DNA of 64,000 nt from a virus. Its lineage: Duplodnaviria > Heunggongvirae > Uroviricota > Caudoviricetes. The notes under the pieces were generated by a model. That model saw only the letters and a list, made by a program, of their open reading frames with translations, did no database searches and had not been told where the DNA came from. Position numbers and translations under genes: made by a program. Shown here piece after piece: positions 2,432 to 64,000 of this stretch. Within the stretch, counting starts at the first letter, position 1. Each line of letters starts with the position of its first letter. The stretch lies in IMG/VR virus record IMGVR_UViG_2703718817_000003, one strand, 5' to 3'.

Positions 2432-3126
2432 CGTTTGCTATCTTCCTCACACCCAAGATATGAAAGAGATGTAATTGCTTTTGCACGGAAACCACCAACC
2501 TTGCTAAGTGCGCTTTTAAGTGCGTCAAGGTCAGATTGTGATTTGATCATGAAAGTTAACCGCGCAATTCCAGACATAGAGTCAGAACCATTCACTGCGT
2601 TGTAGTGATATATGTATCGGGTGACTGATTGAGTCACGCCCTCCTGCTGGTGGTTTATATTGGCGTCCTGTCTTGTGTTGGCCTGCTCCAACTCTTCGAT
2701 ACGTTCAGCCATCGCAGCACACTCTTCAAAGTTGCTTAATGCTTTTCGCTCCGATTCAGCGCATTGTTTTTCCAGTTCTGCTATGCGCTTACCTCCATCC
2801 GCGATTACTCCCTCGTAATGCTCGCGCTGCTCGTTGAGTTTTGATTTTGCCGACTCCAGTTGTTTTGTTAGTTCCACAATACGGCAAACATCGTTGATAC
2901 GCGTTTCCTCTAATGCGTTGATCTCATCCAGTAGTGCCAAAGCAACCTTGGGATTAAAGGCAGCAATAAATTCAGCGTTGTTTTTCAGAACGTGTTGCGC
3001 AATGGCCTGACTACTTAGTCGGACCTCATAACCACGTGCGCCACGGTGTGGTTTATATGAGTCCCAGTCTCCCCACGTTGCTTTCACTGCCGCCTCACGC
3101 AGTGCCTGGTAATTAATTTCGCTCAC
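2428..3126 (-). CDS. Ea22-like phage protein
   Basis: N-terminus [13 protein letters not shown] typical of Ead/Ea22-like family; GTG start overlapping upstream stop (GTGA). Confidence 0.7.
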   Translation of the reverse strand: MSEINYQALREAAVKATWGDWDSYKPHRGARGYEVRLSSQAIAQHVLKNNAEFIAAFNPKVALALLDEINALEETRINDVCRIVELTKQLESAKSKLNEQREHYEGVIADGGKRIAELEKQCAESERKALSNFEECAAMAERIEELEQANTRQDANINHQQEGVTQSVTRYIYHYNAVNGSDSMSGIARLTFMIKSQSDLDALKSALSKVGGFRAKAITSLSYLGCEEDSKR

Positions 3127-3571
3127 TGGTTGCCTCCTTATTAATCAGTTTATACAGGTGCACCACAGTCACAGAGAGTGCATCCATCGCTCGTTTATCC
3201 AGGCGCGGGGCCAGAGCAACCAGTTCATTTATTGCAATCTGAATACGCTGCTCCGCCGCCAGCGTCGCGCGATTGCTCTCCAGTTCTGCAATTCGGCACA
3301 TGGCATCAATATTTGCGTCTTCCAGGCGCTTAATTTCGCCCAGTAGCGCCAGCGCAACTTTTGGTGGGATAGCCGCGATATAACGGGCATTGGCACCAGC
3401 GTTTCTCAGCCCATCAATACCAGGCCAGTCAATAAAGTATCCGCAATGCCTACCCTCAGACGTGCGCGCAGGATAAATGCCGTTATGACCCGGCAAAATA
3501 TATGCTACCCATTCATCTTGCGTTGCCTGTTCCGCCGCCTCGCGCAGTTCTTGATAGTTAATTTTGATCAC
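3113..3571 (-). CDS. Ea22-like phage protein (paralog)
   Basis: N-terminus MIKINYQELREAAEQATQDEW; GTG start preceded by GGAGG. Confidence 0.7.
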   Translation of the reverse strand: MIKINYQELREAAEQATQDEWVAYILPGHNGIYPARTSEGRHCGYFIDWPGIDGLRNAGANARYIAAIPPKVALALLGEIKRLEDANIDAMCRIAELESNRATLAAEQRIQIAINELVALAPRLDKRAMDALSVTVVHLYKLINKEATSERN

Positions 3572-3824
3572 TGGTTGCCTCCGCTTCCCACGTTTTCAGA
3601 CTTTCACCACAGAACGGGCAAAATGAAATTCGAATCGGCGATTTAGAAAACTCGCCTGACCGCAGCATGATCAGGTCTTGTGAATGAATTAATGCATGGT
3701 TATAGATTTTGTATTTCAGCAGACCTTTTCGCGTCGTGTATTCAGCGTCATGTTCCAGGGATTGCGTCAACGCCGCGCACGGTTCTATCTTGTTGCCATT
3801 AATTTGGCATTTTGACTCACTCAC
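3558..3824 (-). CDS. small zinc-ribbon protein
   Basis: GTG start 3824 overlapping upstream stop with GGAGG SD; CPFCGESL motif plus upstream Cys pair. Confidence 0.45.
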   Translation of the reverse strand: MSESKCQINGNKIEPCAALTQSLEHDAEYTTRKGLLKYKIYNHALIHSQDLIMLRSGEFSKSPIRISFCPFCGESLKTWEAEATSDQN

Positions 3825-8654: not shown

Positions 8655-9140
8655 TCACTCTCCTTTGAGGCGAATGCCTGTTGCAATGCTGTTTATGATG
8701 CTGTCAGTGCATGGGGTAGAAAGCTGGGCATCTCCAGCAATTTTCATGACCTCAACATCTGCATATCGAATACCGAGGTGTATCAGACCGGCTATGCCTG
8801 ACTTAAGCCGAGCATTTTCCATAAATAGAACCTTTGCCCGCTGTTTTTCTGCTTCAAGCTCAACGCGCAGCTTCCCTACCGTTAGCGCAATATCCTCGTT
8901 CTCCTGGTCGCGGCGTTTGATGTATTGCTGGTTTCTTTCCCGTTCATCCAGTAGTGCCAGCACGGTTTCTGGTCCGGCCAGAAATTTGAAGGCGTTGAGC
9001 GCATCAATATCCACACCGTAATCTTTAAGTTCCTGTTCACTTAACAAATCATCATCAGCTGGCAACATTAACAGGCGTTCCATTGCTGGAATTGCACGTT
9101 CCGCCGCCTCACGCAGTGCCTGGTAATTAATTTCGCTCAC
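8655..9140 (-). CDS. Ea22-like phage protein (paralog)
   Basis: N-terminus [16 protein letters not shown]; GTG start with GGAGG SD overlapping upstream stop. Confidence 0.65.
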
Positions 9141-9811
9141 TGGTTGCCTCCTTTGCGAAGCTGGGCAGCGAACCTATCAGCTGCATCCGCGCAAGCAGAA
9201 GCAACGGAATCAAAAAATGGATCATCTCCTGTATCGCGCATCGTCAAAGCGAATGCCTCCACCCCTTGTGCCTGTATTTCTACAAGGGATGCCTTAGATG
9301 TAGTGCTTTTCGCCTCGCCTAATTCGTTATGAGCGATGTTCGCTATACATGCGATGTCTATATCTGGATGATTAATTGGGCAATGGCTAAGAATTGCCTC
9401 AAGTGCTGCTTTTTTGCTTTGGCATTCCGCCACCAGCGCCCCGCAATTGCTTTCCAGCTCTGCAATACACTTTTTAGCGGCCTCCAGCTCAACACGCAGA
9501 TTCTCAAGCGTTAGAGCCTTCTCCACGTTCTCGTCCAGCAGTTCAATCACATCAGGATCGCTACCATCAACTACTGATATGCGCGAATTTTTGTAATGCT
9601 CGTCAGCATAAGTTCGTCCAGTTTTGAAGCATCCGTCATCCTCCATGCCGGAACAGGCATAAACAACATGTGATCCAGATATGCGCTGCATTGACATTTC
9701 CTCGCCACAAACAGGGCATTTAGGCGCTGGTTTCGGTGAATAACGTTCACGTAACGGATAGTAAAGCTCGATCTCCGCCAGTTGCTCTGGCGTTAAACCT
9801 TCAGACTTCAT
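9137..9811 (-). CDS. Ea22-like phage protein (paralog) with N-terminal Cys4 zinc ribbon
   Basis: C-terminus [10 protein letters not shown]; CPVCGEE...YACSGMEDDGC motif; AAGGAGAG SD before ATG. Confidence 0.65.
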   Translation of the reverse strand: MKSEGLTPEQLAEIELYYPLRERYSPKPAPKCPVCGEEMSMQRISGSHVVYACSGMEDDGCFKTGRTYADEHYKNSRISVVDGSDPDVIELLDENVEKALTLENLRVELEAAKKCIAELESNCGALVAECQSKKAALEAILSHCPINHPDIDIACIANIAHNELGEAKSTTSKASLVEIQAQGVEAFALTMRDTGDDPFFDSVASACADAADRFAAQLRKGGNQ

Positions 9812-12072: not shown

Positions 12073-12178
12073 TAAAACACACAGTTGCGCCCTGGCATTA
12101 TCGTGGGGTATATTTCTACGGCACCTTAGAAAAACGGGTGCCGGGATTGGAACCCCGGATAATGTCAAAGGCGACACA

Positions 12179-12200
12179 GACGCCGAAAGCGTCTTTTTTT
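12179..12200 (+). terminator. Rho-independent terminator
   Basis: GACGC-CGAAA-GCGTC hairpin followed by TTTTTTT. Confidence 0.6.
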
Positions 12201-12224
12201 GTGTCATGCCATCGCGCAGCCATA

Positions 12225-12320
12225 CGTAGCGTTTAGCTCAGAGATCAATGGTAGTGCTGGCTGGGCTGCCGAAAGGCAGGCCGGTTCCCTTTGACGCCGG
12301 TAGTTCCAACCCAGTCAGTG
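12225..12320 (+). ncRNA. c4-like antisense RNA of immI-type module (copy 1)
   Basis: Contains b' CCCTTTGAC (12288-12296) and a' GTTCCAA (12303-12309) complementary to b2 GTCAAAGG (12367-12374, at the icd SD) and a2 TTGGAAC (12336-12342); same targets repeated upstream as a1/b1 (12147-12171); boundaries approximate. Confidence 0.45.
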
Positions 12321-12385
12321 CTACCGCCATTGAGATTGGAACCTCACGCGGTAGCTCCTTAACTTAGTCAAAGGAGGCTGCCAAT

Positions 12386-12601
12386 ATGGCTACTATCCCC
12401 ACCCCAACTCATTCTGAATTTATCTGGCGTTTCTATTCCTGCCAAAAACACCTCTATATCTGCGTCATGGCTGCTACCGAAGCAGAAGCGCGCTCATACC
12501 TTCCCGAAGAACCCTGCATTTTTGCTGCTCGCTTCACTCTTGATGCGATGGAGATCCTCAATTACTGGAATCTGCCGATGAACTGCGTGGAGGTGCACTG
12601 A
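12386..12601 (+). CDS. Icd-like small protein (immI module)
   Basis: 71 aa, AAGGAGG SD, stop overlaps rha start (TGATG); paralog of 63277..63501. Confidence 0.6.
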   Translation: MATIPTPTHSEFIWRFYSCQKHLYICVMAATEAEARSYLPEEPCIFAARFTLDAMEILNYWNLPMNCVEVH

Positions 12602-13542
12602 TGAATCTGTCCATCTCTCAAAAAGCGACAATGACCAGTATTGAAATCGCGGAACTGGTAGGTAAGCGTCATGATAATGTGAAGCGTACCATTGAAGTAT
12701 TAACTAAAGGTGGTGTCATTCAATTTCCTCAAATTGAGGAAATTGAAAATAAACAATCAGTTGGCCCTCGTCGATTTTCCAAGGCTTACATCTTTGAAGG
12801 CGAACAAGGCAAGCGTGACAGTATCATTGTCGTTGCGCAGCTCTCTCCGGAATTCACCGCCCGGCTGGTGGACCGCTGGCGCGAACTGGAGAATGCCAGG
12901 GGACCGTTAAAATCAAAAGCCGAAATCCTGGCTGAAATGGCGCAAATGCATCTTGAGCATGAACGCCGGATCAACGCTGTTAATGCCCAGGTAGCCGAAG
13001 TATCGGCACAAGTGTCCAAAGTCGCTGAAACCGTCGAGCAGATCAAGAAAGGCAACATACCAGAAGGTTACATTGGCTATCGCCAGTTAGCGGCGAAATG
13101 CGGCCTGACTGAAGCCAAATGCCGCAACCTGGTCAACGCTTACCGGATCCCCACAGATACGCATGAGTTTTTGACTCCCGACGGTTTGCTTGCGCGACGC
13201 TCAATTGTGGCCCTGGCCCCCTTCCGGAAAGCCTTTAAGCAGGTGATGTCGGAGGCAGAACCACGTAACAAACGCTGGTATCATCCCAGGATGGGGCTAT
13301 TTCAGGCCATTCACCATCCTGTGCCTGAAAGTCCAAAGGCAAACCTGTCGTTGCATACCGCCAGAGAGAAGATTAAAACAGGGTATGCAACCGTATGCCG
13401 TCGAGCATCCTGGCCTGAAAGTGTCTGGGTATGGCCCGAAAGAGGCTCACGGAAAAACTGGCGCACCATTCGCGACGGCAAGATCTGTGCGATTGATTTA
13501 CAGCCAGAAGATGTAGCAGCGACCGACTGGATTGTTAGTTAA
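12601..13542 (+). CDS. Rha-family phage regulatory/antirepressor protein
   Basis: N-terminal MTSIEIAELVGKRHDNVKRTIEVL... Phage_pRha-type signature; 313 aa. Confidence 0.75.
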   Translation: MNLSISQKATMTSIEIAELVGKRHDNVKRTIEVLTKGGVIQFPQIEEIENKQSVGPRRFSKAYIFEGEQGKRDSIIVVAQLSPEFTARLVDRWRELENARGPLKSKAEILAEMAQMHLEHERRINAVNAQVAEVSAQVSKVAETVEQIKKGNIPEGYIGYRQLAAKCGLTEAKCRNLVNAYRIPTDTHEFLTPDGLLARRSIVALAPFRKAFKQVMSEAEPRNKRWYHPRMGLFQAIHHPVPESPKANLSLHTAREKIKTGYATVCRRASWPESVWVWPERGSRKNWRTIRDGKICAIDLQPEDVAATDWIVS

Positions 13543-18396: not shown

Positions 18397-18596
18397 GTGT
18401 TTGCAAGGACATGAATAGTACACTATTATGATGGTGAAGGAATGGTACATGTTGAACCAAACCTTCGAGGATGCAGCAGACTGAAGAAATTCAGACATCC
18501 CGCAACCAGCTATCATAACAGGTCAAACCAGTTGTGATACTTGGTCAAGGCAAAGTCCGGTAATGGCGTTCTGAATACCAGAAAATAATTTCTGGC

Positions 18597-18630
18597 GAAG
18601 CCCACCTTAAGGTGGGCTTTGTTATTTTGG
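18597..18630 (+). terminator. Rho-independent terminator between convergent genes
   Basis: AAGCCCACC-TTAA-GGTGGGCTT hairpin then TTTGTTATTTT. Confidence 0.7.
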
Positions 18631-47304: not shown

Positions 47305-50300
47305 ATGTGCGCAGATAAAGTAAAGAATATTGTCACCTTATCTTCGGACATTTCCGCTCCACTAATTGCAGACATGCAATACTTTGAGCTGTATAGCACC
47401 GAAGCTCTAAACAGGAAGATGAAAAATATCGTTCTGCCCGGAGTGTACTGTGGGTTTGAACCGGTGCCAGGGGATGGTCTGTTTGTGCGTATTACATCCG
47501 AGAAAACAGAGGGAAGAGGGGCGGCTTCAATTGACGTGGGTAAATGTCAGATATCCGTGCAGCAAGTCAGTGATGTTCTTGTTCCTGTAGAAGCTGGTGT
47601 AACGACAATCATCGTTCTTGAAGCTAATTACGAACATGGAGTGAAAACCAGCCAGGTAGATAGCTCATCGGATATTAGCGCAGCGAGAATTATTGCTCTC
47701 GTTGATGAGGAAATAGCATCTAACCAGATTGAGCTATGCCGCGTGATCGTGCCTGACAATGCTCAAGCCGTTACCGCAGATATGATTAGCACTGAATATC
47801 GTGCTAATCGTGCTGTTGGTGTTGAGTTTTCCAGTGCTTTGGATAGTGACGAAGAATATAAAGCCGCAACACCTCTTGCTATCAGCACGTTAAACAAACT
47901 AAAAGCTCCGGTTGATAGCCCGGAGTTTATTGGTATACCTAAATCTCCAACTCCGGAACAAGGTACAAACAGTACACAAATCGCAAACACTGCCTTTGTT
48001 CAGGCCGCAATAACCGCCCTTATTGATGGTTCTCCTTCAGCGTTGGATACGCTGAAAAAAATTGCAGATGCAATTAACAATGATCCTCAGTTTAGCCAGA
48101 CGATTAATGCTGCTTTAGCTCTTAAAGCACCGTTATTAAGCCCGGCATTTACAGGGGTGCCAACAGCGCCTACAGCGTCACAAGGTACGAACAACACTCA
48201 GATTGCAACAACCGCTTATGTTCGTGCCGCTATTTCTGCATTGGTCGGCTCATCACCAGAAGCTCTTGATACTCTTAATGAGCTTGCTGCGGCGCTGGGC
48301 AATGACCCGAACTTTGCGGCTACAATGACAAATGCCCTGGCAGGTAAGCAGCCTCTCGACGCAACCTTAACCGCGCTCGCTGACCTGGCGACGGGGGCAA
48401 ATAAATTACCGTACTTTACCGGAACAGACACTGTAGCCCAGACTGATTTAACGTCAGTCGGTCGCGATATTCTTGCTAAAACAAGCACACTGGCTGTTAT
48501 CCAATACCTTGGTTTAAGAGAACTCGGAACCAGCGGAGAAAAGCTCCCCCTGTTGAGCACAGCTAATACCTGGAGTGCACGCCAGACTTTCAGCGCGGGG
48601 ATCACTGGTACGCTGACCGGGAACGCCGATACTGCGACGAAATTAAAAACAGCCAGAAAGATTAACGGTGTGGCATTTGATGGGTCGGCAGATATTACTC
48701 TGACCCCTGAAGATCTTGGCTTAACGGATATTGCTTCTCAAGCTGGTAACGCAGTTCAGCGTTCTGGCGACACAATGGGGGGGCAGCTAAAAATTGGCAC
48801 AATAAATGCCCTTCGAATATTTAACCAGGACTTTGGCCTTATCTTCAGGAGATCCGAGGAATATCTTCATCTTATCCCGACAAATGAAGGTGAGGGAGAA
48901 AATGGTGACATCGGCCCATTAAGACCTTTTGCTATAAATTTAAGAACCGGGTTGGTGTCCATCGGTAATGGGGTAACAGTTAGTGGTGGCATTACAGGTA
49001 ATTTGACGGGAAACGCAGATACTGCGACAAAGCTCAAGACGGCACGCACAATCGGCGGAGTGTCATTTGATGGCAGCGCCAATATCGACCTGCCAGGCGT
49101 GAATAAAACAGGTAATCAGAGCACTACCGGCAATGCTGCAACCGCAACGAAACTTCAGACGGCACGCACAATCGGCGGAGTGTCATTTGATGGCAGCGCC
49201 AATATCAACCTGCCGGGTGTGAACATTGCCGGTAACCAGAACACAACAGGTAATGCTGCAACCGCTACAAAACTGCAAACAGCCCGCACAATCAACGGTG
49301 TTAATTTTGATGGTTCTGCGAACATTTCGATACCAACAATTACGTCCAGAGGGCGTGTTACTGCGCTCACCGGTACAACGCAAGGTGCTGCTGCTGGATT
49401 GCAGATGTATGAGGCGTACAACAACGGCTATCCTTCTGCTTACGGGAATGTGCTTCATCTTAAGGGCGCAACGGCAGTTGGTGAAGGCGAGTTGTTCATA
49501 GGCTGGAGCGGTACAAGTGGCGCTCATGCTCCGGCTTTTATTCGCTCTCGCAGAGATTCAACAGATGCAGCATGGTCTGATTGGGCGCAGGTCTACACAT
49601 CGAAGGATTCCATCCCTGGTGTAAATACAACAGGCAACCAGAACACAACCGGAAACGCGGCGTCTGCAACGAAATTACAAACGGCAAGAACCATTGGTGG
49701 CGTTTCATTTAATGGCACCGCAAACATCGACCTGCCAGGTGTGAATAAAACAGGTAATCAGAGCACTACTGGCAATGCCGCAACTGCAACAAAACTGCAA
49801 ACAGCACGCACAATAGGCGGGGTTTCGTTTGATGGCACCGCAAACATCAATCTTCCGGGCGTCAATATTGCCGGGAATCAAAATACAACTGGTAATGCAG
49901 CTACAGCGACAAAGTTAAAAACAGCCAGGAAAATAAGTGGCGTGGCTTTTGATGGTTCCGCAGATATCACATTAACGGCAAGTCATGTTGGTGCGTTAGC
50001 AACAACAGGTGGTACTGTTACCGGTGAAATTATATCCAGCAGCCAAAATGCTATACGCCTAACTTATAATAATAACTATGGATTCCTAATAACTAATACT
50101 GGATATAGTTTCCAGATATCAACCACTGGGCAAAATGTTAATGGTGATGTCGTTTACACTCCATTAAAGATAGATGGCGGTGATGGTCGCGTAGAATTAG
50201 GACGTGCTGATGGTCATGTAAGGGTTATGGGGAATTTATCTGCCGCTGGTCAGATTACCCCTGGTAACTATAGTAATTTCAACACGAAATATCAGGCTAA

Positions 50301-62916: not shown

Positions 62917-62946
62917 ATGTTAGAAAATTAAATTGATGTTTCTAAT
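62917..62946. promoter_or_regulatory. palindromic operator-like site upstream of second immI module
   Basis: ATGTTAGAAAATTAAATTGATGTTTCTAAT; further half-site TCTTTCTAATG at 63005-63015. Confidence 0.5.
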
Positions 62947-63139
62947 CAAGAATGTATGATTTATATCGTCACTAAAAAACAGCATCTGATAAAAATTCTG
63001 TTGATCTTTCTAATGTTCAGGCTTATATTCATGCCGTCGTAGCAAATTCTGCGACCGGGTTTAGCAGCCTGAATGTTAGTGCGGACAACCGCAGATATCC
63101 GATATTGCGGTATTTTTGTGTCCGTAAAACCGCGTTACG

Positions 63140-63225
63140 CCCAAATTATGGTGGGGCGTGATGGGGAGGCTTCGGCCTGCTGGTTTCACTAACGCCAGTC
63201 TGCTAACCCCGTCACGTCCTGCCAC
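63140..63225 (+). ncRNA. c4-like antisense RNA of immI-type module (copy 2, different specificity)
   Basis: b' TTCACTAAC (63185-63193) and a' CTGCTAA (63200-63206) complementary to b2 GTTAGTGAG (63260-63268, includes SD) and a2 TTAGCAG (63230-63236); a1/b1 copies at 63061-63081; boundaries approximate. Confidence 0.45.
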
Positions 63226-63276
63226 CTGTTTAGCAGCGGGTAGCAGGTTGTTAAACCTGTTAGTGAGGCCGTAACT

Positions 63277-63501
63277 ATGGTTAATGCCAATCCTTGCTCA
63301 CGTCCAGAATTCATCTGGCGTTTTCACTCCCTGCAAAAACACTGCGATCACTTCGCAATTGCCGCAACTGAAAAAGAAGCCCGTTCTCTGATCCCGGATC
63401 AGTATGGCGTTCTCACTGGTCGTTTCTCTACTTCCCCACAACCAAACACCAATCCCTGGTATCGCAATATTACCAATCCCGGCATTGTGGAGGCTCACTG
63501 A
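63277..63501 (+). CDS. Icd-like small protein (immI module copy 2)
   Basis: 74 aa paralog of 12386..12601 (PEFIWRFHSLQKH...); stop overlaps rha start. Confidence 0.6.
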   Translation: MVNANPCSRPEFIWRFHSLQKHCDHFAIAATEKEARSLIPDQYGVLTGRFSTSPQPNTNPWYRNITNPGIVEAH

Positions 63502-63986
63502 TGGATATCTGCATTCTCGAAAAGCCATCAATGACAAGCATTGAGATCGCGGAGCTGGTGGGAAAACGTCATGACAATGTGAAACGCACTATTGAGACAT
63601 TAGCCAAAGGTGGCGTTATTGTTCGTCCTCAAATTGAGGTTTTCGAAAAAATCAATAACTTAGGACTACGACGTAGTGTTGAGGCTTACGTCTTCGAAGG
63701 CGAGCAAGGCAAGCGCGATAGCATTATCGTCGTCGCGCAGCTCTCTCCCGAATTCACCGCCCGGCTGGTGGACCGCTGGCGCGAACTGGAAGAACAAGTA
63801 CGCCAGCCGTTGACCGAAATAGAGATGATCGCTGCAATGGCTGCAAATGCAGTTCAGCAGCAAAAGCGGCTTCATGTTGTTGAGTCAAAGGTTAGCCAGG
63901 TTGCTGAAACCGTCGAGCAGATCAAGAAAGGCAATATTCCGGAAGGCTACATTGGCTATCGCCAGTTGGCGGCAAATGCGGCCTGA
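63501..63986 (+). CDS. Rha-family protein, copy 2, apparently frameshifted/truncated
   Basis: N-terminal 150 aa paralogous to 12601..13542; 1-nt deletion relative to copy 1 near 63975 (GCGGCAAATGC vs GCGGCGAAATGC) gives stop at 63986. Confidence 0.55.
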   Translation: MDICILEKPSMTSIEIAELVGKRHDNVKRTIETLAKGGVIVRPQIEVFEKINNLGLRRSVEAYVFEGEQGKRDSIIVVAQLSPEFTARLVDRWRELEEQVRQPLTEIEMIAAMAANAVQQQKRLHVVESKVSQVAETVEQIKKGNIPEGYIGYRQLAANAA

Positions 63987-64000
63987 CTGAAGCCAAATGC

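What the first reader, a model, noticed from the sequence alone, without database searches (positions are those of the whole stretch)
63055..63501. Second immI-type module with a different antisense specificity
Copy 2 has the same architecture, but its recognition elements differ: TTCACTAAC and CTGCTAA pair with GTTAGTGAG (over the SD) and TTAGCAG, with a1/b1 copies at 63061-63081. Copy 1 uses CCCTTTGAC/GTTCCAA. P1 and P7 differ in exactly this way in their c4 specificity. One element carrying two immI modules of different specificity, in direct orientation about 51 kb apart, could control two antirepressors independently and provide two long direct repeats for recombination.
Basis: partly seen in the sequence, partly recalled or inferred. 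Interest (0 to 1): 0.65.

Follow-up and report, generated by a model that had tools for sequence, protein, structure and literature searches.

The report
Two antisense-RNA-gated antirepressor cassettes
This stretch of a D6-like phage-plasmid carries two P1-style immunity cassettes, each with a small C4 antisense RNA predicted to silence its own antirepressor operon through a different recognition code; the reading is correct, but the arrangement is ordinary and already noted for this phage family.

Summary
Rfam finds a C4 antisense RNA at 63144-63229 with a c4-a1b1 motif at 63023-63075. It finds a second C4 at 12244-12331, preceded by an isrK sRNA at 12121-12199. In each module the two C4 recognition elements are complementary to one target pair upstream and one downstream, and the downstream b site overlaps the Shine-Dalgarno sequence of an icd-like gene. 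Each composite pattern occurs exactly three times in 64 kb, against 0 expected. Across 169 related loci the three sites co-vary (99.8-100% paired; 7-8 pairs with double changes). The two codes are unrelated, and loop-level energies favour cognate over cross-module pairing. Copy 2 is a hybrid: the P7-type a element with the P1-type b element.

The window is one replicon, collinear at 97-99% with complete circular D6-like E. coli plasmids that all hold both modules. D6 itself, RCS47 and 21 contigs also carry two, and one P1-like plasmid carries five.

Three corrections apply. The effectors are Rha-family proteins, not P1 Ant. The two copies are not near-duplicates, since only the rha genes are BLAST-similar, at 74%. 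The "long direct repeats" idea is therefore weak. The second c4/icd region in D6-like plasmids was noted in 2019. Verdict: a new member of a known kind, of modest interest.

The parts
62917..62931 (-). Candidate D6-type C1 operator (core AATTTTCTAACA) abutting the -35 of the upstream promoter of module 2
   Evidence: The most over-represented 11-mer family in the window. There are 10 good sites, including three inverted pairs, and the core matches the P1 operator at 8 of 12 positions. Inferred, not tested.
62933..63029 (+). Two tandem sigma-70-like promoters of module 2 (TTGATG-16-TATGAT at 62933-62960; TTGATC-17-TATATT at 63001-63029)
   Evidence: Consensus scan. The downstream promoter aligns with P1 P1c4/P51b.
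63023..63081 (+). c4-a1b1 leader of module 2, with a1 TTAGCAG (63061-63067) and b1 GTTAGTG (63075-63081)
   Evidence: Rfam RF03163, 53.9 bits against a cut-off of 46.7. Covaries with the C4 loops, 100% paired.
63089..63117 (+). Hairpin followed by a U5 tract between b1 and C4-2, in the same position as the IsrK terminator of module 1
   Evidence: Sequence and fold. Nearly invariant in 32 relatives, so there is no covariation evidence. The function is inferred.
63144..63229 (+). C4 antisense RNA of module 2 (predicted mature RNA 63150-63226 by alignment to the 77-nt P1 c4); b' CACTAAC 63187-63193, a' CTGCTAA 63200-63206
   Evidence: Rfam RF01695, 70.0 bits against a cut-off of 45. Alignment to the annotated P1/P7 c4. 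Fold.
63230..63268 (+). Downstream targets of module 2: a2 TTAGCAG 63230-63236 and b2 GTTAGTG 63259-63265, overlapping the SD GAGG 63265-63268
   Evidence: Sequence, pattern count, and covariation with 100% paired and 8 of 14 pairs changed on both sides.
63277..63501 (+). icd-like gene 2 (74 aa); its stop overlaps the start of the next gene (ATGA)
   Evidence: 53% identical to P1 Icd and 99% to D6 orf19. phrog_1426 at 1e-38.
63501..64000 (+). Rha-family putative antirepressor 2, cut off by the window end (235 aa in the near-identical plasmid LR890273)
   Evidence: Pfam Phage_pRha and PHROG 63 'anti-repressor Ant', scored on the full-length relative.
12085..12114 (+). Putative promoter of module 1 (TTGCGC-18-TATATT), ending 7 nt before the isrK 5' end
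   Evidence: Read from the sequence and conserved in D6. It falls below the threshold of the consensus scan. Inferred.
12121..12201 (+). IsrK-type sRNA carrying a1 TTGGAAC (12147-12153) and b1 GTCAAAGG (12164-12171), ending in an intrinsic terminator (stem 12178-12194 plus a T run)
   Evidence: Rfam RF01394, 62.7 bits against a cut-off of 50. Terminator scan. Covaries with the C4-1 loops, 99.8% paired.
12244..12331 (+). C4 antisense RNA of module 1 (predicted mature RNA about 12250-12328); b' CCTTTGAC 12288-12295, a' GTTCCAA 12303-12309
   Evidence: Rfam RF01695, 77.1 bits. Fold.
12336..12377 (+). Downstream targets of module 1: a2 TTGGAAC 12336-12342 and b2 GTCAAAGG 12367-12374, overlapping the SD GGAGG 12373-12377
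   Evidence: Sequence, pattern count, and covariation with 100% paired and 7 of 15 pairs changed on both sides.
12386..12601 (+). icd-like gene 1 (71 aa), with an ATGA overlap onto the next gene
   Evidence: ORF list. 45% identical to icd-like 2. phrog_1426 at 4e-41.
12601..13542 (+). Rha-family putative antirepressor 1 (313 aa), 71% identical to antirepressor 2 over 235 aa, plus an extra C-terminal domain (phrog_7385 / weak Tad2-like)

Best explanation
The window is part of a D6-like (P1-type) phage-plasmid that carries two paralogous immI-type cassettes. Each is one operon: promoter(s), a leader with decoy sites a1/b1, a C4 RNA, target sites a2/b2, an icd-like ORF, and a translationally coupled Rha-family antirepressor. 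By analogy with P1/P7, the roughly 77-nt C4 RNA is cut out of the operon's own transcript. Its hairpin loop (b') and adjacent single strand (a') then pair with a2/b2. Because b2 covers the Shine-Dalgarno sequence of icd, icd translation is blocked, and through coupling and polarity the antirepressor is not made. The prophage repressor therefore stays active, and incoming phages with the same code are silenced. Module 2 (63023-64000) belongs to the P1/P7 subfamily and uses the code a=TTAGCAG (P7 allele) with b=GTTAGTG (P1 allele). Module 1 (12085-13542) belongs to an IsrK-linked subfamily and uses TTGGAAC/GTCAAAGG. Its a1/b1 sites sit on a terminated sRNA (IsrK) that can act as a sponge for C4-1. 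The codes are unrelated, so each C4 should gate only its own antirepressor. What is shown here: the RNA genes, the complementarities, their covariation, the gene order, and the single-replicon context. What is inferred: RNA processing, repression in trans, orthogonality in vivo, and the antirepressor activity of the Rha proteins.
For: Rfam hits for C4 (twice), c4-a1b1 and isrK all exceed their gathering scores. Each composite a/b pattern occurs exactly 3 times, against 0 expected. The sites align with the annotated P1 a1/b1/c4/a2/b2. Covariation is strong. In 85 loci of the P1 type, 2 a alleles and 5 b alleles occur in 8 combinations, and a1=a2=rc(a') and b1=b2=rc(b') hold in 85 of 85. In 84 loci of the isrK type, 7 combinations occur, all paired (26 use G:U wobbles) except one a1 recombinant. 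Formal counts give 99.8-100% paired and 7-8 pairs with double changes, against 25-58% in slid controls. In the P1-type leader, 24 of 42 recognition columns are variable against 14 of 190 elsewhere (odds ratio 16.8, p=3.5e-12). Loop-level duplex energies are -8.5 to -13.4 kcal/mol for cognate pairs and -1.2 to -6.8 across modules. Both icd-like ORFs end in ATGA overlaps onto Rha-family genes, which match PHROG 63 'anti-repressor Ant'. The window is one replicon: it is collinear at 97-99% with the circular plasmid NZ_LR890273.1, which holds both modules about 50 kb apart. The same holds in D6 and in 21 contigs, none of which has two identical codes.
Against: Nothing here shows transcription, processing or repression. 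The effector is not homologous to P1 Ant1/2 (PF03374 against PF09669), and no D6-type Rha protein has been shown to bind C1. The P1 C1 operator consensus is absent, and only a candidate D6-type operator lies next to module 2. In the Gifsy-1 IsrK system the published model is activation by IsrK through alternative mRNA structures, not C4-type repression (PMC4825925). In plasmid LR890273 the module-1 rha gene is annotated as a pseudogene, so that module is dispensable in at least some relatives.
Confidence: 0.85

Rival explanations
1. Module 1 works mainly as an IsrK-type positive switch, as described for Gifsy-1. The full-length transcript folds into a translationally inactive structure, and the short terminated IsrK RNA, acting in trans, opens it and activates the downstream antirepressor. 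The C4-like RNA would be only a processing product, or a termination factor as in P4.
For: isrK scores above its gathering threshold and has its terminator. In Gifsy-1, IsrK supplied in trans raises anrP translation more than 100-fold, and a processed RNA (STnc1160) arises downstream of isrK (PMC4825925). An ORF of 39 aa (12248-12367) overlies C4-1, like orf45.
Against: The C4-1 loops co-vary not only with the IsrK sites but also with a2/b2 at the icd RBS, which is what the repression model predicts. IsrK acting as a sponge for C4 reproduces the published activation phenotype, so the two models are compatible rather than exclusive. Here an icd-like ORF, not an orf45-type ORF, is the one coupled to rha.
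Confidence: 0.3
2. One of the two modules is a redundant or decaying duplicate with no present function.
For: The module-1 rha gene is a pseudogene in plasmid LR890273. The two Rha proteins are 71% identical and so possibly redundant.
Against: In the window both operons are intact. Three-site complementarity is maintained in 168 of 169 loci across both families. Both modules are retained in D6, in many plasmids and in 21 contigs.
Confidence: 0.1
3. The two modules cross-talk, with each C4 repressing both operons, so they form one redundant immunity rather than two independent ones.
For: They share the same fold and architecture. Within other multi-module plasmids, some cassettes share one of the two elements.
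Against: The a and b elements of the two window modules share no complementarity. Cross-module loop energies are -1.2 to -6.8 kcal/mol against -8.5 to -13.4 for cognate pairs. No two-module contig has identical codes.
Confidence: 0.05
4. The two copies come from different replicons joined by misassembly, or exist mainly as recombination substrates.
For: None for misassembly. For recombination, the rha genes share exact runs of 41 nt (80 nt when the full-length relative is used).
Against: The window is collinear with complete circular plasmids and with the sequenced phage D6, all of which hold both modules at similar spacing. The RNA regions are too diverged for BLAST to detect. A crossover between direct repeats would split the plasmid into two incomplete circles.
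Confidence: 0.02

Closest known systems
immI region of phages P1 and P7 (c4 RNA, icd, ant1/2)
   Same: Module 2 is about 91% identical to P1/P7 from the promoter through the start of icd. It has the same order a1-b1-c4-a2-b2-icd, with b2 over the icd SD, and tandem promoters. Specificity differs by compensated changes in a and b, exactly as between P1 and P7.
   Different: The code is a hybrid, with the P7 a allele and the P1 b allele. The effector is a Rha-family protein, not Ant1/2 with its KilAC domain. There is no P1-type C1 operator. The cassette lies downstream of repL rather than upstream of kilA-repL.
Phage D6 (MF356679), orf19/orf18 and orf83/orf82, and D6-like plasmid prophages such as pYU39_89
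   Same: Same element type, with the same two cassettes at the same genomic places (after repL, and after ref). Nucleotide identity is 88-89%. The second c4/icd region is already noted in PMC6799933.
   Different: D6 uses other codes: TTGACAG/ACTTACG in the P1-type module and TTGAGAC/GCAAAAGG in the isrK-type module.
Gifsy-1 isrK-orf45-anrP locus of Salmonella (Hershko-Shalev et al. 2016, PMC4825925)
   Same: Module 1 has an IsrK homologue with a terminator, then a processed-RNA region, then a Rha/AnrP-type antirepressor gene. IsrK is complementary to the downstream RNA.
   Different: Here the downstream RNA is a bona fide Rfam C4, and an icd-like ORF lies between it and the antirepressor. The published model does not invoke C4-type repression at the RBS.
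P4 immunity (CI RNA with seqA/seqC), same Rfam clan CL00128
   Same: A small RNA processed from the leader pairs with repeated sites both upstream and downstream of itself.
   Different: P4 CI acts by premature transcription termination and controls replication genes, not an icd-antirepressor operon. This was not tested here.
Extra icd-ant cassettes in P1-like plasmids (RCS47, pTZ20_1P, pSvP1; PMC6906374)
   Same: RCS47 carries an isrK-type module (89% identical to module 1) between pacB and c1, in addition to its canonical immI. The plasmid NZ_AP042542.1 has five C4 cassettes.
   Different: Those cassettes drive KilAC-type antirepressors and sit at other insertion points.

Membership tests
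C4 antisense RNA (Rfam RF01695) | Sequence and structure reach the curated gathering score | tested here: met
   70.0 bits (63144-63229) and 77.1 bits (12244-12331) against a cut-off of 45.
P1/P7 immI module | C4 elements a' and b' are complementary to a2 and b2 downstream, with b2 overlapping the RBS of the first ORF | tested here: met
   Exact 7-8 nt complements, with b2 running into GAGG or GGAGG. Covariation is 100% paired.
P1/P7 immI module | A second copy of the targets (a1/b1) lies upstream of c4 in the same leader | tested here: met
   Module 2 has the Rfam c4-a1b1 motif at 53.9 bits against 46.7. In module 1 the sites lie inside isrK. Covariation is 99.8-100%.
P1/P7 immI module | An icd homologue is the first ORF, translationally coupled to the antirepressor gene | tested here: met
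   The two Icd-like proteins are 53% and 38% identical to the reference proteins in alignment A4. Both junctions have ATGA stop/start overlaps.
P1/P7 immI module | The antirepressor belongs to the Ant1/Ant2 (KilAC, PF03374) family | tested here: not met
   Both effectors are Phage_pRha PF09669, whereas P1 Ant1 scores PF03374 at 1e-30.
P1/P7 immI module | A C1 operator (ATTGCTCTAATAAATTT) lies at the upstream promoter | tested here: inconclusive
   The P1 consensus gives 0 hits at up to 3 mismatches. A different repeated motif, AATTTTCTAACA, abuts the -35 of module 2's upstream promoter.
P1/P7 immI module | C4 is excised by RNase P and represses in trans, giving code-specific (hetero)immunity | not testable with these tools
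   This needs northern blots, reporter assays and superinfection assays.
IsrK sRNA (Rfam RF01394) / Gifsy-1 isrK locus | isrK reaches its gathering score and ends in an intrinsic terminator | tested here: met
   Module 1 only: 62.7 bits against 50, with a terminator at 12178-12194 plus a T run. Module 2 has no isrK hit.
IsrK sRNA (Rfam RF01394) / Gifsy-1 isrK locus | An orf45-type ORF overlaps the processed RNA and is directly coupled (AUGA) to the antirepressor gene | tested here: not met
   An ORF at 12248-12367 exists but ends 19 nt before icd. The ORF coupled to rha is icd-like.
D6-like phage-plasmids | Collinearity with D6 and D6-like circular plasmids across the window | tested here: met
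   97-99% identity in blocks covering most of the window against NZ_LR890273.1, and 88-89% to D6 at both modules.

The most novel reading that the evidence does not exclude
P1- and D6-like phage-plasmids may carry arrays of two to five C4-gated antirepressor cassettes. Each would be addressed by a two-part RNA code (a and b) whose alleles are reassorted combinatorially and kept matched at three interleaved sites. This would amount to an RNA 'barcode' system under diversifying selection, setting which co-resident or incoming elements can induce which. The terminated a1/b1 leader RNAs (IsrK and perhaps its P1-type counterpart) would act as sponges that set the threshold. The window's pair, the P7-a/P1-b hybrid plus TTGGAAC/GTCAAAGG, would be one address in that space.
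Probability: 0.4. Interest if true: 0.55.

Novelty: new member of a known kind. Interest (0 to 1): 0.3.

Why it matters
For this window the result is mainly annotation. Two RNA genes, an sRNA and their targets are missed or mis-called as proteins by standard pipelines, which annotate an 'ash family protein' CDS over C4. More broadly, the survey shows that C4 recognition codes are modular. There are 8 and 7 combinations in the two subfamilies, and they are perfectly compensated at three interleaved sites. Phage-plasmids also stack up to five such cassettes. If the codes are orthogonal in vivo, they would govern heteroimmunity and cross-induction among the P1/D6-like plasmids, which carry resistance genes in about 10% of complete E. 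coli genomes. They would also offer a natural set of orthogonal antisense switches.

Tried and rejected
- Full-length RNAduplex of C4 against the leaders (first block) was uninformative because it ignores the C4 fold. I used loop-restricted energies instead.
- The P1 C1 operator consensus gave 0 hits.
- The shared promoter motif TTGATNTTTCTAAT is not enriched: 5 matches against 2.65 expected.
- The genome-contig scan returned only 6 loci.
- The D6 genome paper (Gilcrease & Casjens 2018, PMC5800970) is not held, so what it says about the two modules could not be read. The D6 GenBank annotation was used instead.
- A predicted long-range helix between the a1 region (63056-63071) and the a2-b2 spacer (63244-63259) is 93.7% paired in relatives but has no compensatory changes, so it is inconclusive.
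- The 'long direct repeat' idea is rejected on sequence identity, and misassembly is rejected.
- No further C4 copies reach the Rfam gathering score in the window.

Full report

Yes. In 63055-63501 the sequence reads, in order:
- a1 TTAGCAG (63061-63067)
- b1 GTTAGTG (63075-63081)
- a hairpin followed by a U tract
- a structured RNA whose hairpin loop holds CACTAAC (63187-63193), followed by single-stranded CTGCTAA (63200-63206)
- a2 TTAGCAG (63230-63236)
- b2 GTTAGTG (63259-63265), running into GAGG
- an ATG at 63277 that opens a 74-codon ORF ending at 63501

The composite pattern TTAGCAG-N(5-30)-GTTAGTG occurs exactly three times in the 64-kb window: upstream target, the RNA on the complementary strand, and downstream target. 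Shuffles give none. The other copy gives the same result with TTGGAAC/GTCAAAGG at 12147-12171, 12288-12309 and 12336-12374.

Rfam at gathering thresholds finds:
- C4 antisense RNA at 63144-63229 (70.0 bits) and 12244-12331 (77.1 bits; cut-off 45)
- the c4-a1b1 motif at 63023-63075 (53.9 bits; cut-off 46.7)
- isrK at 12121-12199 (62.7 bits; cut-off 50)

**2. One caveat on "same scaffold"**

The two copies share architecture and fold, but not much sequence. A pairwise alignment has about 45% identical columns. BLAST does not detect the RNA regions as similar. Only the downstream rha genes match, at 74% over about 540 bp. Copy 2 is about 91% identical to P1/P7 from the promoter into icd. Copy 1 belongs to a different subfamily that is linked to isrK.

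**3. What the window is**

The window is collinear, in blocks of 97-99% identity, with the complete circular 92.8-kb E. coli plasmid NZ_LR890273.1. That plasmid carries P1/D6-type head, tail, pac, repL, par and phd/doc genes, and it holds both modules about 50 kb apart. The best phage match is D6, at 88-89% for both modules. Its GenBank record annotates two "icd" genes, each followed by a "putative anti-repressor": orf19/18 after repL, and orf83/82 after ref.

All twelve top plasmid hits have two places. The misassembly refuter therefore fails: this is one replicon of a D6-like phage-plasmid.

**4. Evidence that the pairings are functional**

I fetched 160 related loci from IMG/VR, added D6, P1, P7, RCS47 and six genome loci, and read the six elements in each.

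*P1-type family (n=85).* Two a alleles (TTAGCAG, TTGACAG) and five b alleles (GTTAGTG, GATTGTG, ACTTACG, ACGAATG, ACTTGTG) occur in eight combinations. In 85 of 85 sequences a1=a2=rc(a') and b1=b2=rc(b').

*isrK-type family (n=84).* Seven combinations occur. Of these, 57 are perfect, 26 keep pairing through G:U wobbles, and one (L126) has a mismatched a1.

*Formal counts on dereplicated alignments.* These give 99.8-100% of cells paired. In the P1-type family 8 of 14 pairs are changed on both sides, and in the isrK-type family 7 of 15. Slid controls give 25-58%, and 0 of 500 shuffles reach the observed covariation score.

*Where the variation sits.* In the P1-type leader it is concentrated in the recognition elements. 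24 of 42 element columns are variable, against 14 of 190 outside them (odds ratio 16.8, p=3.5e-12).

This supports pairing of C4 with both the downstream and the upstream sites, in both subfamilies. It also shows that the isrK sRNA is the a1/b1 carrier of the copy-1 subfamily.

**5. Specificities**

Copy 2 combines the P7 a allele with the P1 b allele, so it is a hybrid code. D6 has the P1 a allele with a third b allele. Copy 1 uses TTGGAAC/GTCAAAGG, D6 uses TTGAGAC/GCAAAAGG, and RCS47's second module uses TTGAGAC/GTCAAAGG.

Loop-restricted duplex energies are -8.5 to -13.4 kcal/mol for cognate pairs and -1.2 to -6.8 between the two modules. Among 21 contigs carrying both scaffolds there are 16 different code combinations, and none has two identical codes.

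Orthogonality is therefore well supported thermodynamically and by comparison, but it has not been demonstrated.

**6. Most likely mechanism**

This follows established P1/P7 knowledge (Citron & Schuster 1990; Biere et al. 1992; Hartmann et al. 1995, from my own knowledge; summarised in PMC12197685).

- The operon is transcribed from its promoter(s). Module 2 has two tandem sigma-70-like promoters. Module 1 has a weaker-consensus TTGCGC-18-TATATT ending 7 nt before isrK.
- C4 is excised from the transcript.
- Its b' loop and a' strand pair with b2 and a2. This occludes the icd SD.
- Through the ATGA coupling and polarity, the downstream antirepressor is not made.

In module 1 the a1/b1 sites lie on a terminated sRNA (terminator at 12178-12194). 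In Gifsy-1, IsrK supplied in trans activates the downstream antirepressor more than 100-fold, and a processed RNA (STnc1160) arises just downstream (PMC4825925). A sponge role for IsrK against C4-1 would explain both findings.

Shown here are the genes, sites, covariation and context. Processing, repression and sponge action are inferred.

**7. Effectors**

Both icd-like proteins (71 and 74 aa, 45% identical to each other) belong to phrog_1426. Both downstream proteins are Rha-family (PF09669; PHROG 63 "anti-repressor Ant") and are 71% identical to each other. They are not the KilAC-type Ant1/2 of P1.

The window cuts copy 2's rha gene at 64000. Copy 1's protein has an extra C-terminal domain (phrog_7385, with a weak Tad2-like match). 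After copy 2 in LR890273, that domain is a separate 65-aa ORF.

**8. Repressor control**

The P1 C1 operator consensus is absent. A different motif, AATTTTCTAACA(C/T), matches the P1 operator at 8 of 12 positions and is the most over-represented word family in the window. It has about 10 sites, including three inverted pairs. One site (62917-62931) abuts the -35 of module 2's upstream promoter, as Op51 does in P1. None lies next to module 1's promoter. This is a candidate D6-type C1 operator. It would mean that only module 2 is additionally under repressor control.

**9. The "long direct repeats" idea**

This is weak. The longest exact run shared by the two modules within the window is 41 nt, or 80 nt against a full-length relative. 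A crossover between them would split the plasmid into two incomplete circles.

**10. Comparison with what is known, and novelty**

- C4, c4-a1b1 and isrK are curated Rfam families (PMC2864571).
- The second c4/icd region of D6-like plasmids was remarked in 2019 (PMC6799933).
- Extra icd-ant cassettes in P1-like plasmids were noted in PMC6906374.
- Both leader types are common on plasmids of complete E. coli genomes: 310 and 537 of 5426 genomes.
- One P1-like plasmid, NZ_AP042542.1, carries five C4 cassettes with five different (a,b) combinations.

Two cassettes in one element is therefore ordinary for this clade.

What I did not find described in the held literature is the combinatorial reassortment of a and b alleles across three interleaved sites, the equivalence of IsrK with the a1/b1 leader, or the stacking of up to five cassettes. 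A 2025 review treats IsrK and c4 separately.

**Verdict:** It is a new member (a new code combination) of a known kind, of modest interest.

Noticed in passing
window 6077/6096, 10923/10942, 22545/22564 (inverted pairs); 11573, 30636, 61719, 62918: An over-represented motif, AATTTTCTAACA(C/T), resembles the P1 C1 operator (8 of 12 positions). It occurs as single sites and as inverted pairs, like P1's monovalent and bivalent operators. It is a candidate operator of the D6-type C1 repressor. One site abuts the upstream promoter of C4 module 2.
   Followed up: partly
L174/L175 (NZ_AP042542.1, a 98.6-kb P1-like plasmid): This plasmid has five C4 RNAs, four with c4-a1b1 and one with isrK. Each precedes an icd-like gene and a KilAC antirepressor. 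All five (a,b) codes differ, though some share a single element. A further b allele, GTACATG, occurs here.
   Followed up: partly
window 12248-12367: A 39-aa ORF overlies the C4-1 RNA. In related RefSeq plasmids PGAP calls it an 'ash family protein'. This is probably a protein annotation laid over an RNA gene. It is the positional counterpart of orf45 in the Gifsy-1 IsrK study.
   Followed up: partly
window 63056-63071 with 63244-63259: The predicted minimum-free-energy fold of the module-2 leader pairs the a1 region with the a2-b2 spacer in a 16-bp helix. Both a alleles remain paired through A-U/G-U switching (93.7% of cells paired in 32 relatives), but there are no compensatory changes. It is reminiscent of the inactive 'structure A' of the IsrK locus.
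   Followed up: partly
window 13350-13542 and L001 18473-18670: The module-1 Rha protein carries a C-terminal domain (phrog_7385; weak Pfam Tad2-like match, E=0.0095, below the cut-off). After module 2 in the related plasmid this domain is a separate 65-aa ORF, so the two differ by a fusion or split.
   Followed up: partly
window 18435-18620 (segment 18378-19250): The Rfam sroH hit (113 bits) lies in a cargo segment that plasmid LR890273 lacks. The segment holds a plasmid-borne paralogue (about 81% nt identity) of chromosomal yjaZ/htrC, annotated 'stationary phase growth adaptation protein'.
   Followed up: partly
L126:1236-1505: This is the only locus of 169 in which a1 (TTGAGAC) does not match its C4 a' (GTTCCAA), while a2 does. 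It looks like a recombinant leader, and it suggests that a1 mismatch is rare but tolerated.
   Followed up: no
L002 10765-11475 (NZ_LR890273.1 60765-61475): In this otherwise near-identical plasmid, the module-1 rha gene is annotated as a truncated pseudogene. It is intact (313 aa) in the window.
   Followed up: no
window 49006-49970; 3076-3582 and 9092-9153: There are internal direct repeats of about 120 nt periodicity inside the large 'beta strand repeat-containing' tail-fibre-like gene. A short repeat of 51-62 nt is shared among ead/Ea22-like genes (self-comparison).
   Followed up: no
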